Assembly: GCA_030641665.1 (NCBI GenBank)
Contig: DAOWHA010000038.1
Coordinates: forward strand, 23,857 to 87,856
DNA: 64,000 nucleotides
Direction of reading: 5' to 3'
DNA from: a bacterium
GTDB lineage: Bacteria > Patescibacteriota > Patescibacteriia > JAACEG01
Both the position numbers and the translations under genes were made by a program. The number at the start of each line of letters is the position of its first letter. Positions within the stretch are counted from its first letter, which is position 1. Positions 55,732 through 60,124 of this stretch are shown piece by piece. The notes under the pieces are model-generated. The model did no database searches. It was not told the origin of the DNA and saw nothing but the letters and a program-made list of their open reading frames with translations.

Positions 55732-56076
55732 ATGTTTGATTCTTTGCCAGTTTTTGACAATTCATCAGAATTAGAGAATATAATCACTAATTGTCCAATT
55801 TGCGGAAACAAAAATGGAAGTTTAGAAGTGTCGATTTTAGAGGATGGCGGCAATAGCAATTTAATTTACATTAAATGCCATAAATGCTTTAACAATTTAT
55901 TAGGAGTAATAAATTATAGCCCTTTCGGCGTTAGCATAGCCACCTTTGCCACTGATTTAAAAAAGTCTGAAGTTCTCAAATTTCAAAATGGAGACTATGT
56001 CAACAGCGACGATGTTTTAGAACTTCATAGCATATTAGAAGATAAAAAAATAGACTTTAAGGAGATAATAAGATAA
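55732..56076 (+). CDS. Hypothetical zinc-finger protein (CPICG...CHKC)
   Basis: Two CxxC pairs; occupies the position where prp/rpmA usually follow rplU. Confidence 0.4.
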   Translation: MFDSLPVFDNSSELENIITNCPICGNKNGSLEVSILEDGGNSNLIYIKCHKCFNNLLGVINYSPFGVSIATFATDLKKSEVLKFQNGDYVNSDDVLELHSILEDKKIDFKEIIR

Positions 56077-57167: not shown

Positions 57168-58163
57168 ATGGATCATCACAAATTAACTTTGGAGCAAGTA
57201 GCAAGAGTAGAGAAAGGCATTGGTATTGATGCTTTTGTACGACTAAGTAATCAGTTGCCGGAAATCGGTGTTAAATACGGCGACAAGTTGCTTGGGCAAG
57301 TTGAGGCGATTCTCAATATGGTTGATCCCATGGATCAGGAAAAGTTGCTTGCCGGCGAAGCGTCAATCGAAATTATCGAGATTATTAAATCTTTGTTCGA
57401 TAACACTAGTCGCGTTATTCCGCCTCGCGGATTTAAGTTGCCGGTAACTGATGAAAATAGGAAGTTTTATCTTGATCAGCATGTTGTTGATCATCAAGAC
57501 ACACTGAAACGTTTAACAGATTATCTCCATGGATATAAATATCCGTCTTTATCCGAGTTTCAGGATAAATGCGAATCCGTCAAGGAGAAATCATTGCAGT
57601 ATCCGCGAATCGGAGAAAACGCGTTTAATCGCTGCTATCTTCCTCTTCCGATACCGCATATTCCGGAATTGTCTGACTTAACAAAACTGGGAAAAGTTAT
57701 AGAAGATTTGCTTGAAGGAGTGGGACGGGCTTATAAGAATGAGTTTCCCGATCGTACTTTCTATAATCACAGACAAGGAACTTTGGCAGGCGAGGTTTCA
57801 ATCGTTTCCGGCACAAGACATGGCAAATTACTTGAAGCTGCTTCCAAAGCGCCGCAATCAGGCATATTTCTCCCTGATTCTTTGCAGGGATATTCAATTC
57901 ACGCTGACAGGAAAATTATTTCATTGTTTCCCAACTTTGTTTCACTTAGCGGTATTGAATATATTTTTGCAATGATTGCTTATCCTGACATTCTGGCGCG
58001 TGACTACAACACGCCCGGACTGGATATGGCCGCTCTTTTCTGGCGGTCCGCCGACTATTCGCTTCTCTTCGAGGCTAGCGACGACGAGCTCAGCTTCGGC
58101 CGCACGGGCTACTTGGCCGTTGCCTACGACTTCTATTCTGGCGGTCTCTTGTTTCTCGGGTAG
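57168..58163 (+). CDS. DGR target protein; C-terminal variable region in a putative C-type-lectin/FGE-like fold
   Basis: Its last 126 nt form the VR. The C-terminal WRSADYS...GGLLFLG resembles the CRSANR...IGFRLV ends of CLec/FGE-type DGR targets. The 3' end is locally GC-rich. Confidence 0.65.
   Translation: MDHHKLTLEQVARVEKGIGIDAFVRLSNQLPEIGVKYGDKLLGQVEAILNMVDPMDQEKLLAGEASIEIIEIIKSLFDNTSRVIPPRGFKLPVTDENRKFYLDQHVVDHQDTLKRLTDYLHGYKYPSLSEFQDKCESVKEKSLQYPRIGENAFNRCYLPLPIPHIPELSDLTKLGKVIEDLLEGVGRAYKNEFPDRTFYNHRQGTLAGEVSIVSGTRHGKLLEAASKAPQSGIFLPDSLQGYSIHADRKIISLFPNFVSLSGIEYIFAMIAYPDILARDYNTPGLDMAALFWRSADYSLLFEASDDELSFGRTGYLAVAYDFYSGGLLFLG
58037..58162 (+). repeat. DGR variable repeat (VR)
   Basis: 126 bp paired with 58531-58656; 18 mismatches, all at positions that are A in the other copy. 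Confidence 0.85.
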
Positions 58164-58244
58164 TGCAGGGATTTGGTCTTTTTGTTCCTTGGTTTTTGGA
58201 TCAAAAATTTTGGTTCTTGGTTTTTGGTCGAATTTTTAAAATCA

Positions 58245-58280
58245 CGAGGCGTGACAATGTTGCGCCTCGTTTTTCTTTTT
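58245..58280 (+). terminator. Rho-independent terminator after the DGR target gene
   Basis: CGAGGCGTGACAATGTTGCGCCTCG hairpin followed by TTTTTCTTTTT. Confidence 0.55.
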
Positions 58281-58530
58281 AAAATATGATAAAATAAATT
58301 TGGGAGTAGGCTAATGCAACCGGTCTCAAGGGGTAGCGGTTCGCCGAAACCCTAAATTTCTACCAACGCATCAGAATTTTGCGGTTCACTTTGGATTGCA
58401 AAAGAGTATGTGAAAATTTAGGCACTACTTGTCTTTTTCTGGCGTTCAACTTTTAAGAGCCAAATAAAATACAGGGGGAATATTACTTTTCAAGCTATTT
58501 TCCCAGTGGTTAAAGATGGAAAAAGACGAA

Positions 58531-58656
58531 TTTTCTGGCAGTCCGCCGACTATTCGCTTAACTTCAAGGCTAACGACGACAAGCTCAACTTCGACAACAC
58601 GGACAACTTGGCCAATGCCAACGACAACTATTCTAGCGGTCTCTTGTTTCTCGGGT
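58531..58656 (+). repeat. DGR template repeat (TR)
   Basis: Intergenic copy rich in AAC codons (NFKANDDKLNFDNTDNLANANDNY in frame); it carries adenine at every VR/TR mismatch site. Confidence 0.85.
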
Positions 58657-58720
58657 TGTGTCTAAATGTAATAAAGGCCTCATTATAGAGGTCTTTATTC
58701 GTTATTATCTTTGAGGTAAT

Positions 58721-59071
58721 TTAGTTAAGCGAGCGTTGCCAGCCGCCTAACATTCTGCCAATTTCTTGAATCTGCTTTTGTAATTCGAGATATTTTTTAC
58801 TATCAATAATATTCAAGTCTTTTAGCAGTCTAATAAACAGTTTTAGGGTATCAAATTTAGCATTAGCTTTCTTAATTAAAGCCAACTTTTCATCTCTGTA
58901 AGCGCAACTGGTCTCCAACAATAGTTCAAGCGTAACAATAATATACATTTCGCACTTAGCCCCTAAAGTATGTTTATCTTTTTTAGGAAATAAAGCAGAG
59001 TATTTATAAAAAAGTTTATACAGTTCATATAATTTTTTAATTATTGGAATATCTGTATTTTTATGATCCAT
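58721..59071 (-). CDS. Avd-like accessory variability determinant (four-helix-bundle protein, TIGR02436-like)
   Basis: 116-aa helical protein (YELYKLFYKYSALFPKKDKHTLGAKCEMYIIVTLELLLETS...GGW) resembling four-helix-bundle/Avd proteins found beside DGR reverse transcriptases. Opposite strand, overlapping the RT start by 9 nt. Confidence 0.6.
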   Translation of the reverse strand: MDHKNTDIPIIKKLYELYKLFYKYSALFPKKDKHTLGAKCEMYIIVTLELLLETSCAYRDEKLALIKKANAKFDTLKLFIRLLKDLNIIDSKKYLELQKQIQEIGRMLGGWQRSLN

Positions 59072-60124
59072 AATATTTATGATAAATTAATTAGTTTGGA
59101 AAATATTTTAATTTGCTGGAATGAATTCAAAAAAGGCAAATCAAAAAAATATGACATGATGGAATTTGAGCGTTATTTGGAAGATAATATTTTTGAGCTT
59201 CATAACGAATTAGTTAATCAAACTTATCAGCACTGCCCTTATGTAAAATTCCATATCTATGATCCAAAGCATAGAATAATCCATAAAGCCGAAGTTAAAG
59301 ACAGAATAGTTCATCACATTGTTTTTAAGGAATTATATAGAATTTTTAATCCAACTTTTATATATCATTCGTATTCGTCCAGAAATAATAAGGGTACTCA
59401 TTTGGCTGTTAGGAATTTATCCCGTACATTACGGAAAGTTAGCAATAACTACACAAAGCAGGTTTATGTATTGAAATGCGATATTAAAAAATTTTTTCAT
59501 AGCGTATCTCACCAAAAACTTTTTGAAATAATAAAAAATAAGATTAACGACCATAAATTTTTGTGGCTAGTATGGCAAATTATATCAAGTTTTTTCATAA
59601 TTGCGGAAAACTTTCCGCAGAGAGAGTTAAAGAAAAATTTTTTAGAAAAAAGAGGTTTACCAATAGGTAATTTAACCTCACAAATTTTTGCTAATATATT
59701 TTTGGATAAATTCGACTGGTTCATTAAAAAGCAATTAAGAATAAAATATTATTTTAGATATGCTGACGATTTTGTGATTATTAATTCAAACCCGGAATAT
59801 CTTAATAATATTGTTAACTTAATAGAGGAATTTTTAAATACAAAACTTAATTTAAAATTACATCCTCAGAAAACAGAAATTAGAAAATTCGAACAGGGTG
59901 TTGATTTTCTCGGATATGTTATTTTACCTCATTATATAACACTTCGGACAAAAACCAAAAAGAGGGTGTTTAAAAAAATTAAAGATAATAAAGAAAAATT
60001 GGATCAAAATTTGATATCTAAAAATTCTTTTAATCAATCGCTTCAGTCGTATTACGGAATATTTATGCGCTGTAATAGCTATAAATTAAAACGAGAACTT
60101 GATAAGTTTATTAAAGATTTTTAG
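59063..60124 (+). CDS. DGR reverse transcriptase
   Basis: RT motifs: domain 4 PIGNLTSQ (DGR-type [ILV]GxxxSQ), domain 5 RYADDFVII (YxDD); 353 aa; no maturase or endonuclease domain; adjacent to TR/VR. Confidence 0.8.
   Translation: MIHNIYDKLISLENILICWNEFKKGKSKKYDMMEFERYLEDNIFELHNELVNQTYQHCPYVKFHIYDPKHRIIHKAEVKDRIVHHIVFKELYRIFNPTFIYHSYSSRNNKGTHLAVRNLSRTLRKVSNNYTKQVYVLKCDIKKFFHSVSHQKLFEIIKNKINDHKFLWLVWQIISSFFIIAENFPQRELKKNFLEKRGLPIGNLTSQIFANIFLDKFDWFIKKQLRIKYYFRYADDFVIINSNPEYLNNIVNLIEEFLNTKLNLKLHPQKTEIRKFEQGVDFLGYVILPHYITLRTKTKKRVFKKIKDNKEKLDQNLISKNSFNQSLQSYYGIFMRCNSYKLKRELDKFIKDF

What the first reader, a model, noticed from the sequence alone, without database searches (positions are those of the whole stretch)
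58037..58656. TR/VR pair: 18 of 18 mismatches fall on template adenines; TR is built from AAC codons
I aligned the two 126-bp copies by eye. They differ at 18 positions, and at every one the intergenic copy (58531-58656) has A while the gene copy has G, C or T. Both flanks are identical (TTTTCTGGC at the 5' end, GGCGGTCTCTTGTTTCTCGGGT at the 3' end). In frame, the TR reads NFKANDDKLNFDNTDNLANANDNY, with eight AAC (Asn) codons. The VR reads LFEASDDELSFGRTGYLAVAYDFY. The identical GC-rich 3' end fits an initiation-of-mutagenic-homing-like element. The repeats are markedly more GC-rich than the roughly 30% GC genome. Adenine-specific substitution with AAC enrichment is the mechanistic signature of mutagenic retrohoming.
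Basis: seen in the sequence. Interest (0 to 1): 0.8.

Follow-up and report, generated by a model that had tools for sequence, protein, structure and literature searches.

The report
Diversity-generating retroelement with rearranged template RNA
This is a genuine, apparently working diversity-generating retroelement of the type already known from Candidate Phyla Radiation bacteria, and its template sits inside a conserved folded RNA whose priming elements seem to lie upstream rather than downstream of the template.

Summary
All 18 are adenines in the TR (P≈7e-14), and none of the 95 non-A positions differs.

The cassette is complete: target gene (57168-58163), TR, an Avd gene on the minus strand (58721-59071) and a reverse transcriptase (59063-60124) whose closest solved relative is the Bordetella phage bRT. 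This TR-(avd)-RT order is the published "B3" architecture, typical of Candidate Phyla Radiation (CPR) DGRs, so the element is a new member of a known kind. The target has no Pfam or NCBIfam family. Its model gives weak but uniform C-type-lectin-fold matches.

Going further, I found a ~225-nt structured RNA directly 5' of the TR, present in 49 of 55 related loci with enough upstream sequence, with strong covariation. One strand of it pairs with both TR flanks. That strand is also complementary to the VR 3' flank, and it covaries with that flank.

In order and geometry these elements match the primer and "cPRT Stop" elements of the Bordetella phage spacer RNA, but they lie upstream of the TR. 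I found no description of this arrangement in the literature I could search. Priming from this strand is inferred, not shown.

The parts
57168..58163 (+). Target (variable-protein) gene, 331 aa. It has no Pfam or NCBIfam family and no signal peptide or TM segment visible. The C-terminal ~230 aa model as a divergent C-type-lectin-like fold.
58036..58161 (+). Variable repeat (VR), the last 42 codons of the target gene.
   Evidence: 18 of 18 mismatches to the TR lie at TR adenines. The homologue alignment shows hypervariable columns at exactly these residues within a conserved scaffold ...W.SA..SL.F.A.D..L.F..T..LA.A...YSGGLLFLG.
58141..58161 (+). IMH-like block, 21 nt identical to TR 58636-58656 (GCGGTCTCTTGTTTCTCGGGT).
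58160..58166 (+). VR 3' edge and flank, GTAGTGC. It is a perfect complement of RNA strand 58422-58428 (GCACUAC). The corresponding TR flank (58655-58661, GUUGUGU) has a U:U mismatch and a G:U wobble.
   Evidence: VR flank positions 1-8 are complementary in 70-91% of 33 loci. Position 2 is Watson-Crick in 12 of 12 RNA sequence classes for the VR against 7 of 12 for the TR. Permutation P < 1e-4.
58163..58243 (+). Conserved T/G-rich stretch downstream of the VR, with six YTTGG pentamers. It is a candidate target-site element; its function is unknown.
   Evidence: this is the densest YTTGG cluster in the window; the sequence is conserved downstream of the VR, but not of the TR, in 9 related loci.
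58244..58270 (+). Terminator-like hairpin of the target gene (12-bp stem followed by a T-run).
58285..58295 (+). Extended -10-like box (TATGATAAAAT), about 7 nt upstream of the first conserved RNA nucleotides. It is the inferred promoter of the TR-containing RNA.
   Evidence: Read from the sequence. A TATAAT-like box sits at the same place in related loci (sequences). The consensus scan, which requires a -35 element, did not call it. Inferred.
58302..58530 (+). Conserved structured RNA domain immediately 5' of the TR. Its 3' half is a sub-threshold match to Rfam RT-16.
   Evidence: nhmmer finds it in 31 loci. RNAalifold on 17 sequences gives 35 pairs, 28 with compensatory changes. 94.9% of cells are paired against 43-60% when partners are slid. 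Covariance model R1 hits 59 of 100 sources, always on the RT strand, including 49 of 55 RT loci with at least 800 nt upstream. Rfam RT-16 scores 29.7 bits against a gathering score of 50.
58416..58428 (+). 'Primer-like' strand AUUUAGGCACUAC. It pairs with the post-TR segment 58655-58667 and is complementary to the VR 3' flank.
   Evidence: RNAduplex places the site at a constant position in most of 45 loci. In alignment A6, 75.6% of cells are paired against 33-50% when slid, the covariation score is 0.461 against 0.19 or less, and 0 of 500 shuffles reach it.
58429..58440 (+). 5' strand (UUGUCUUUUUCU) of a 12-bp long-range helix. It is followed by a short stem-loop (58444-58460), a conserved A-rich single strand (58461-58473, CAAAUAAAAUACA) and a long irregular hairpin (about 58472-58506).
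   Evidence: 11 of the 12 pairs in this helix show compensatory changes, and 97-99% of cells are paired.
58518..58529 (+). 3' strand (GGAAAAAGACGA) of the same helix. It ends one nucleotide before the TR/VR homology begins.
   Evidence: in the related loci the homology starts mostly 0-8 nt after this helix.
58531..58656 (+). Template repeat (TR). It is intergenic, with 31 adenines, all at codon positions 1 or 2 of the VR frame. There are 21 mutable codons, giving about 1.8e18 possible peptides.
58655..58667 (+). TR 3' edge and post-TR segment GUUGUGUCUAAAU. It pairs with 58416-58428 (10 contiguous pairs 58416-58425:58658-58667, plus A58427:U58656 and C58428:G58655).
58670..58699 (+). 12-bp stem-loop flanked by an A-run and a T-run, between the TR and the convergent avd gene. 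It may be a bidirectional terminator, an Avd-binding stem-loop, or both.
   Evidence: A hairpin of different sequence (arms complementary in each locus) sits at the same place in most related loci. Handa et al. (bioRxiv 10.1101/2023.10.23.563531) report 9-bp stem-loops just 3' of the TR in 207 of 278 Avd-containing DGRs.
58721..59071 (-). avd (accessory variability determinant), 116 aa, on the opposite strand.
   Evidence: Pfam bAvd PF22296, E 4.8e-18. NCBIfam NF033474 'DGR protein Avd' scores 83.3 bits against a cut-off of 80.
59063..60124 (+). DGR reverse transcriptase, 353 aa. Its start codon overlaps the avd start divergently within ATGATCCAT (59063-59071).
   Evidence: RVT_1, E 7e-28. Best PDB hit is 8ub7_A, the Bordetella phage bRT, at E 1.6e-41, against 2e-17 for group II intron RTs. 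IGNLTSQ and YADD are conserved.

Best explanation
The locus is a complete, chromosomal diversity-generating retroelement (DGR) of the CPR-specific TR-(avd)-RT ('B3') type in a Candidatus Parcubacteria genome.

The TR is transcribed as part of a roughly 400-nt RNA (about 58302-58700). The RT, together with Avd, copies the TR into cDNA and misincorporates opposite adenines. The cDNA then replaces the VR, recoding 21 codons at the C-terminus of a 331-aa protein. That protein has a divergent C-type-lectin-like domain and an unknown ligand.

Inferred mechanism of priming and targeting: the RNA elements that lie 3' of the TR in the Bordetella phage DGR, within the 'spacer' (Sp), lie 5' of the TR here. 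They occur in the same order: primer strand, cPRT-Stop duplex strand, small stem-loop, A-rich single strand, long stem-loop.
- Strand 58416-58428 pairs with the TR's 3' flank, so cDNA synthesis would start at about G58654/G58655.
- The adjoining strand 58429-58440 pairs with 58518-58529. This forms a 12-bp helix that ends one nucleotide before the TR and would stop the RT.
- The primer-like strand is perfectly complementary to the VR's 3' flank but mismatched to the TR's. This would direct the RNA-linked cDNA to the VR and not back to the TR.

Sub-confidences: about 0.97 that this is a DGR of this class, about 0.9 that the RNA structure and pairings exist, and about 0.5-0.6 that they act as primer, stop and guide as described.
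For: Shown here:
- A-specific TR/VR differences, 18 of 18, with 0 of 95 non-A positions differing.
- The RT is closest to bRT and has DGR motifs. Avd passes NCBIfam's equivalog cut-off.
- The same cassette occurs in 6 genome loci. In the 30+ related loci where a VR was found, TR/VR mismatches lie mostly at TR adenines, e.g. 23/23, 21/21 and 25/26.
- Recent activity in a close relative: L026 and L062 have identical TRs and 99.8% identical upstream DNA, but their VRs differ at 19 sites, 18 of them TR-A sites.
- The architecture equals B3 of Wu et al. [quoted passage not shown]
- RNA domain: 28 of 35 pairs are compensatory and 94.9% of cells are paired, against 60% or less when slid. It is present in 49 of 55 loci.
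- Post-TR pairing covaries.
- TR/VR homology boundaries coincide with the two helices.
- The VR flank covaries with the primer-like strand.

From the literature:
- In BPP-1 the Sp strand carries, in order, primer strand Sp47-56, a 2-nt linker, the 11-bp stop duplex strand Sp59-70, a stem-loop, A-minor adenosines, the single-stranded Thumb Ring, and the bRT-binding stem-loop (Handa et al., bioRxiv 10.1101/2023.10.23.563531).
[quoted passage not shown] 2017, PMC5703328).
Against: - There is no direct evidence of activity in this genome: no reads or population data were available.
- The transcript ends, the promoter and the priming nucleotide are inferred. The consensus scan did not call the promoter.
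- The correspondence with BPP-1 RNA elements is by order, length and geometry only. There is no sequence homology, and no RNP model was built.
- The position I would equate with the priming adenosine is not a conserved A (window A58427 varies among loci). The nearly invariant neighbours are A58424, C58425, U58426 and C58428.
- Handa et al. reported putative stop duplexes formed between sequences upstream and downstream of the TR in many DGRs, including CPR ones. A downstream (antisense-avd) partner cannot be excluded here.
Confidence: 0.85

Rival explanations
1. The cassette is a fossil. The DGR was active in the past but no longer diversifies the target in this organism.
For: No population or read data for this genome could be examined. 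The exact-sequence look-up of the RT found no other contig. One relative (L006) has its RT split into two frames.
Against: All three genes are intact and retain the catalytic and signature motifs. None of the 95 non-A positions of the repeat has drifted while 18 of 31 A positions differ, which argues for a recent copy event. Near-identical relatives with identical TRs carry different VRs at A sites.
Confidence: 0.08
2. The conserved 5' RNA is not part of the reverse-transcription machinery. It would instead be a leader, an sRNA or a regulatory element (or a retron-like msr, as Weinberg et al. speculated for RT motifs) that merely lies next to the TR. The true primer and stop elements would lie 3' of the TR, as in BPP-1, within the antisense-avd transcript.
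For: In every experimentally studied DGR the functional RNA is 3' of the TR. Handa et al. report downstream partners for stop duplexes in a survey that included CPR DGRs. If the hairpin 3' of the TR is not a terminator, transcription could continue through antisense avd into the RT gene. Conservation there cannot be separated from coding constraint.
Against: Both TR flanks pair with adjacent segments of one upstream strand, with covariation. The helices coincide with the limits of TR/VR homology. The same strand covaries with the VR flank, as described for the BPP-1 primer. The post-TR hairpin has the A-run/T-run form of a bidirectional terminator. In L006 avd ends only about 16 nt after the TR.
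Confidence: 0.15
3. The repeat is an ordinary duplication of a gene fragment, and its A-bias is chance or compositional.
For: None beyond the fact that the window contains many short AT-rich chance repeats.
Against: P = 7e-14. RT and Avd are adjacent. The same pattern recurs in more than 30 independent loci.
Confidence: 0.01

Closest known systems
CPR DGRs of architecture B3, TR-(avd)-RT (Wu et al. 2018, NAR 46:11, PMC5758913), equal to DGR clade 2 of Roux et al. 2021 (PMC8144416)
   Same: The gene order and orientation match, including avd on the opposite strand. The host is a CPR bacterium and the location is chromosomal. The target has no recognisable domain or membrane anchor, the VR is C-terminal, and the TR is AAC-rich.
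   Different: Nothing essential differs: this is a further member. I could not check whether this VR family is one of their 'UVR' clusters, because the supplements are not held. In the text I could read, these papers do not mention the 5' structured RNA.
Bordetella phage BPP-1 DGR (mtd-avd-TR-brt) and its bRT-Avd-RNA particle (Handa et al., PDB 8ub7 series; Naorem et al. 2017)
   Same: The RT is its closest solved homologue (E 1.6e-41) and Avd is present. Both show A-to-N mutagenesis and an IMH-like identical 3' block. Both have a duplex ending just upstream of the TR and a second duplex at the TR 3' end, contiguous on one strand. That strand continues into a stem-loop, an A-rich single strand and a long stem-loop. 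In both, the primer strand matches the VR flank better than the TR flank.
   Different: That strand is 5' of the TR here and 3' of it (Sp) in BPP-1, i.e. a circular permutation of the RNA. avd is on the other strand. There is no GC-rich hairpin directly after the IMH; instead there is a YTTGG-rich conserved stretch, then a terminator 82 nt downstream. The priming nucleotide is not identified.
Rfam RT-16 RNA (RF03019; Weinberg et al. 2017, PMC5737381)
   Same: The 3' half of the 5' domain aligns end to end with the model. It shares CUAC + outer helix, AUAAAAUACAG, an inner hairpin, GGUG and the closing helix. It lies near an RT gene.
   Different: The score is 29.7 bits here and 32.4 in L005, against a gathering score of 50, so by Rfam's criterion it is not a member. 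RT-16 models the segment before CUAC as a local hairpin, whereas here it pairs with the post-TR segment. In the papers I could search, no function or DGR link is given for RT-16.
Retron msr-msd RNA
   Same: From general knowledge: the priming nucleotide lies 5' of the template on the same RNA and is brought to the template's 3' end by pairing of flanking repeats. That is the topology inferred here.
   Different: The RT here is of the DGR clade, not the retron clade (best retron match E 7.5e-17, against 1.6e-41 for bRT). The product here is targeted to a VR, and Avd is present.
C-type-lectin-fold DGR variable proteins (Mtd 1yu0, TvpA 2y3c, TaqVP 5vf4)

Membership tests
Diversity-generating retroelement | A TR/VR repeat pair whose differences fall at TR adenines | tested here: met
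   18 of 18 mismatches at A, 0 of 95 at non-A positions, P = 7e-14.
Diversity-generating retroelement | A reverse transcriptase of the DGR clade next to the TR | tested here: met
   Best PDB hit is bRT 8ub7_A at E 1.6e-41, against 2e-17 for group II RTs. IGNLTSQ and YADD are invariant in alignment A2. No NCBIfam RT model reaches its cut-off. No RT phylogeny was made.
Diversity-generating retroelement | The VR lies inside a protein-coding gene (usually at its 3' end) and the TR is non-coding | tested here: met
   The VR is codons 290-331 of a 331-aa ORF conserved in 62 homologues. The TR is intergenic. The mechanical 60-aa ORF 58506-58688 is just the TR read in frame.
Diversity-generating retroelement | IMH at the VR end and a non-identical IMH* at the TR end | tested here: met
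   There is a 21-nt identical block, after which the VR reads AGTGCAGG and the TR reads TGTGTCTA. The same VR/TR difference recurs in relatives. The function was not tested.
Diversity-generating retroelement | Accessory protein Avd (present in most DGRs, not all) | tested here: met
   NF033474 scores 83.3 bits, at or above the cut-off of 80. PF22296 gives E 4.8e-18.
Diversity-generating retroelement | A GC-rich inverted repeat directly downstream of the IMH (found in 34% of DGRs per Wu et al.; not defining) | tested here: not met
   No hairpin occurs within about 80 nt of the VR end. The first is the terminator-like hairpin 58244-58270.
Diversity-generating retroelement | Demonstrated mutagenic retrohoming | not testable with these tools
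   Only indirect evidence exists: VRs differ at A sites between near-identical relatives.
CPR 'B3' DGR architecture (Wu et al. 2018) | The order TR, then avd on the reverse strand, then RT | tested here: met
   TR 58531-58656 (+), avd 58721-59071 (-), RT 59063-60124 (+). The definition comes from PMC5758913.
C-type-lectin-fold variable protein | The VR is carried on a CLec fold | tested here: inconclusive
Rfam RT-16 (RF03019) | A score at or above the family's gathering threshold | tested here: not met
   29.7 bits in the window and 32.4 bits in L005, against 50. No gathering-level RT-16 hit was found in 20 further related loci.
BPP-1-type DGR RNA (upstream segment, TR, then Sp) | Primer strand, stop-duplex strand and RT-binding elements located 3' of the TR | tested here: not met
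   The covarying partners of both TR flanks lie 5' of the TR. Only a stem-loop lies 3' of it, before the convergent avd gene.

The most novel reading that the evidence does not exclude
CPR-type (B3) DGRs use a circularly permuted DGR RNA. The primer strand, the stop-duplex strand, the A-rich strand and the RT-binding stem-loop sit 5' of the template, a retron-like topology. The orphan Rfam motif RT-16 would be a relative of this domain. Covariation of the primer-like strand with the VR 3' flank across a dozen sequence classes is comparative evidence that RNA-primer:IMH pairing sets the direction of DGR retrohoming. Until now that idea rested on the Bordetella phage alone.
Probability: 0.5. Interest if true: 0.65.

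Novelty: new member of a known kind. Interest (0 to 1): 0.45.

Why it matters
Two things add value.

First, the target family is a Pfam-less cytoplasmic-looking protein found, where the source organism is named, in CPR/Patescibacteria genomes. Its only recognisable feature is a hypervariable lectin-like C-terminus, and it often has extra paralogues that have no TR within about 4 kb. It is a concrete case for the open question of what CPR DGRs diversify.

Second, the RNA anatomy gives a specific, testable model of how the most common CPR DGR architecture primes, stops and targets cDNA synthesis. All mechanistic work so far comes from one phage element with the opposite RNA layout. A compact RNA of about 400 nt whose boundaries, stop helix and guide-like strand are predictable from sequence would also help in re-engineering small DGRs.

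Tried and rejected
The correct offset is 495.
- A search for further VRs in the window found none.
- Rfam hits to SpF03, plastid UTR families and similar are just the terminator hairpins or noise.
- Foldseek of the target model against the PDB gave no hit with E below 1. The afdb50 library was not available.
- Avd has no sequence match in the PDB.
- The exact-sequence look-up of the RT found no contig, so population variation of this strain could not be examined.
- Paul et al. 2017 (PMC5436926) and a 2026 preprint that mentions DGRs are not held. The Wu et al. supplements are not held, so I could not check whether this VR class equals one of their UVR clusters.
I modelled its 3' 114 positions instead.
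- RNAduplex picked an alternative site inside antisense avd in a few close relatives (L070, L002, L066, L028). I treated these as ties, because the window-type site is present in them too.
- A local hairpin for the segment before CUAC, as in the RT-16 model, fits the window poorly: 4 non-canonical pairs of 14.
- By-eye attempts to pair the extreme 5' end (GUAGGCUAAUGCA) with the post-TR tail were dropped in favour of the covarying 58416-58428 strand.
Full report
**Observation.** Over these 126 nt there are 18 mismatches. All 18 have A in the TR (the VR has G x10, T x6, C x2), and all 95 non-A positions are identical. Thirteen of the 31 TR adenines are unchanged. The hypergeometric probability of 18 of 18 falling on A is 7e-14. 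In the VR reading frame the TR has 7 AAC and 1 AAT codons, and no A sits at a third codon position. Twenty-one codons are mutable, giving about 1.8e18 peptides. The identical 3' block is 21 nt long (GCGGTCTCTTGTTTCTCGGGT). The next base differs, VR A58162 against TR T58657. No other VR copy occurs in the window.

**The cassette.**
- The VR is the last 42 codons of a 331-aa ORF (57168-58163).
- The TR is intergenic.
- A 116-aa gene on the minus strand (58721-59071) is Avd. It matches Pfam bAvd at 4.8e-18, and NCBIfam NF033474 'DGR protein Avd' at 83.3 bits against a cut-off of 80.
- ORF 59063-60124 is a reverse transcriptase. Its best solved relative is the Bordetella phage bRT (8ub7_A, E 1.6e-41), well ahead of group II intron and retron RTs at about 1e-17. 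It carries the IGNLTSQ and YADD motifs.
- The avd and RT start codons overlap divergently within ATGATCCAT.
- The neighbouring genes are an HtrA-like protease, CofD, ribosomal proteins L21 and L25, and SecA, so this is a chromosomal housekeeping context.
- The target protein is 100% identical to a hypothetical protein of a Candidatus Parcubacteria MAG.

The order TR-(avd)-RT is architecture B3 of Wu et al. [quoted passage not shown] Roux et al. [quoted passage not shown] The element is therefore a further member of a described class.

**Relatives and activity.**
- A genome scan with the target family returned 25 loci. Six carry the same target-TR-(avd)-RT cassette.
- The other loci have a diversified-looking C-terminus but no TR or RT within about 4 kb. 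In some cases the same MAG also holds a locus with the cassette, so these look like remote targets of a DGR elsewhere in the genome.
- A metagenome scan with the RT found at least 584 relatives, of which 80 were kept.
- In the 30+ loci where a VR could be found, mismatches to the TR lie mostly at TR adenines, for example 23/23, 21/21 and 25/26.
- L026 and L062 have identical TRs and 99.8% identical DNA upstream of the VR, yet their VRs differ at 19 sites, 18 of them TR-A sites. This is evidence of recent retrohoming in a lineage whose RT is about 80% identical to the window's.
- For the window itself the only evidence of recent activity is the complete absence of non-A drift.

**A structured RNA 5' of the TR.**
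- Rfam gave a sub-threshold match to the orphan motif RT-16 ending exactly at the TR (29.7 bits against a gathering score of 50).
- The region between the target terminator and the TR is conserved in related loci. nhmmer finds it in 31 loci, always on the RT strand.
- RNAalifold on 17 diverse copies predicts 35 pairs, 28 of them with compensatory changes.
- 94.9% of cells are paired, against 43-60% when partners are slid by 1-3 columns. The covariation score is 0.67 against 0.22 or less, and 0 of 500 shuffles reach it.
- A covariance model of the 3' 114 positions hits 59 of 100 sources. These include 49 of the 55 RT loci with at least 800 nt upstream, and the RNA's 3' end lies 479-578 nt before the RT start. 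On that fitted alignment 21 of 22 pairs are compensatory.
- A -10-like box lies about 7 nt before the first conserved nucleotides in the window and in relatives. This is inferred; the consensus scan did not call it.

**The RNA brackets the TR.**
- The 12-bp helix 58429-58440 / 58518-59529 should read 58429-58440 / 58518-58529; it ends one nucleotide before TR/VR homology begins.
- Directly 5' of its first strand, 58416-58428 (AUUUAGGCACUAC) pairs with the TR's 3' edge and flank, 58655-58667.
- RNAduplex finds this site at a constant distance in most of 45 loci.
- I built an alignment in which the 5' strand is placed by model coordinates and the 3' part by MAFFT alone. In it, 75.6% of cells pair against 33-50% when slid, 117 cells have changes on both sides against 28-46, and 0 of 500 shuffles reach the covariation score.
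- In most of the loci with a VR, the TR/VR homology starts 0-8 nt after the first helix and ends within a few nucleotides of the second.
- A stem-loop with an A-run and a T-run (58670-58699) follows, just before the convergent avd stop codon.

**Comparison with the Bordetella phage particle.** In BPP-1 the spacer (Sp), which lies 3' of the TR, carries these elements in order:
- the primer strand Sp47-56, which pairs with TR117-129;
- two linker nucleotides;
- the strand Sp59-70 of an 11-bp duplex with the segment just upstream of the TR (the 'cPRT Stop');
- a small stem-loop;
- adenosines that make A-minor contacts;
- the 12-nt single-stranded 'Thumb Ring';
- a long bRT-binding stem-loop.

An Avd-binding stem-loop lies just 3' of the TR (Handa et al., bioRxiv 10.1101/2023.10.23.563531).

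The window RNA shows the same series on one strand: the primer-like strand, the 12-bp helix strand, a stem-loop (58444-58460), a conserved A-rich single strand (58461-58473), then a long irregular hairpin (about 58472-58506). A stem-loop again lies 3' of the TR. The difference is that the series is located 5' of the TR. This is a circular permutation with a retron-like topology. The correspondence rests on order and geometry, not on homology.

**The VR flank.** The VR's 3' edge and flank, GTAGTGC (58160-58166), is a perfect complement of 58422-58428. The TR flank GUUGUGU has a U:U mismatch and a wobble. The single non-A difference at the edge of the repeat (58162 / 58657) is exactly the position where the VR, and not the TR, matches the RNA.
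- Across 33 distinct loci, the first eight VR-flank positions are complementary in 70-91% of cases, after which complementarity drops to 30%.
- The TR flank is weaker at positions 2-3 (67% and 61%) but stays complementary for 12 nt.
- The match covaries: ..ACUAC with GTAGT, ..ACUCC with GGAGT, ..ACUUC with GAAGT, and ..ACUGC with GCAGT.
- With one representative for each of 12 RNA classes, the variable positions match 34 of 48 times against 14.6 expected from permutation (P < 1e-4). Position 2 is Watson-Crick in 12 of 12 classes for the VR and 7 of 12 for the TR.
- Naorem et al. [quoted passage not shown]

**Mechanism proposed.**
- Shown: the A-specific TR/VR pair, the gene set, the RNA structure, its pairings, and their covariation with both flanks.
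- Inferred: a roughly 400-nt RNA is made from about 58302 to about 58700. RT-Avd binds it. cDNA synthesis starts from the strand ending at C58428, on template G58654/G58655. It runs through the TR with misincorporation at A, and stops at the 12-bp helix. The RNA-linked cDNA then anneals to the VR, with its RNA part pairing to 58160-58166.
- Unknown: the priming nucleotide and its chemistry, the role of the 5' half of the domain (58302-58412), the role of the YTTGG-rich stretch after the VR, and how avd and the RT are transcribed from overlapping divergent starts.

**Novelty.** The DGR itself is ordinary for CPR bacteria. In the literature I could search, nothing links RT-16 or any 5' structured RNA to DGRs. 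Weinberg et al. only speculated that RT motifs other than RT-10 might act in DGRs. Handa et al. examined just 40 nt upstream of the TR. I therefore file the element as a new member of a known kind, and I put the permuted-RNA reading forward as the novel case.

Noticed in passing
window 58163-58243: Six YTTGG pentamers lie in 81 nt directly after the VR. This is the densest such cluster in the 64 kb. The stretch is conserved after the VR, but not after the TR, in 9 related loci. It sits where BPP-1 has its GC hairpin.
   Followed up: partly
window 59063-59071: The avd (minus strand) and RT (plus strand) start codons overlap divergently within the 9-nt sequence ATGATCCAT. The same overlap occurs in L002, L005 and L007, but not in the more distant L011 and L016. 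Each gene's promoter must therefore lie inside the other gene.
   Followed up: partly
L001, L004, L008, L022, L023, L024, L025 and others: Many homologues of the target have a diversified-looking C-terminus but no TR, avd or RT within about 4 kb. Two MAGs (WJLL01, CAZQLH01) carry two copies on different contigs. These may be remote or orphan DGR targets.
   Followed up: partly
L012 (OY970295.1, 855767-864624): A target homologue sits in a 3.5-Mb chromosome labelled Thermodesulfovibrionales, far outside the CPR. This could be horizontal transfer, mislabelling or a chimeric assembly. Several other CPR-like loci are labelled 'uncultured Gammaproteobacteria'.
   Followed up: no
L006 5669-6683: The RT of the Doudnabacteria locus aligns in two frames (residues 1-193 and 195-342). 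This is either a frameshift or a sequencing error. Its avd also ends only about 16 nt after the TR, with no intervening hairpin.
   Followed up: no
window 55732-56076: A 114-aa ORF with two CxxC pairs and no Pfam family lies between the L21 and L25 genes, roughly where L27 usually follows L21.
   Followed up: no
L035 2002-2114 (minus strand): A gathering-level match to the Rfam LOOT RNA (71.3 bits) lies about 560 nt downstream of a related DGR RT.
   Followed up: no
window 58302-58412: The 5' half of the RNA domain (GUAGGCUAAUGCA, a hairpin, the conserved UCGCCGAAA, and a second hairpin) is conserved and covaries, but it has no counterpart in my comparison with the BPP-1 RNA. In L011 and L016 it is about 75 nt shorter.
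   Followed up: partly
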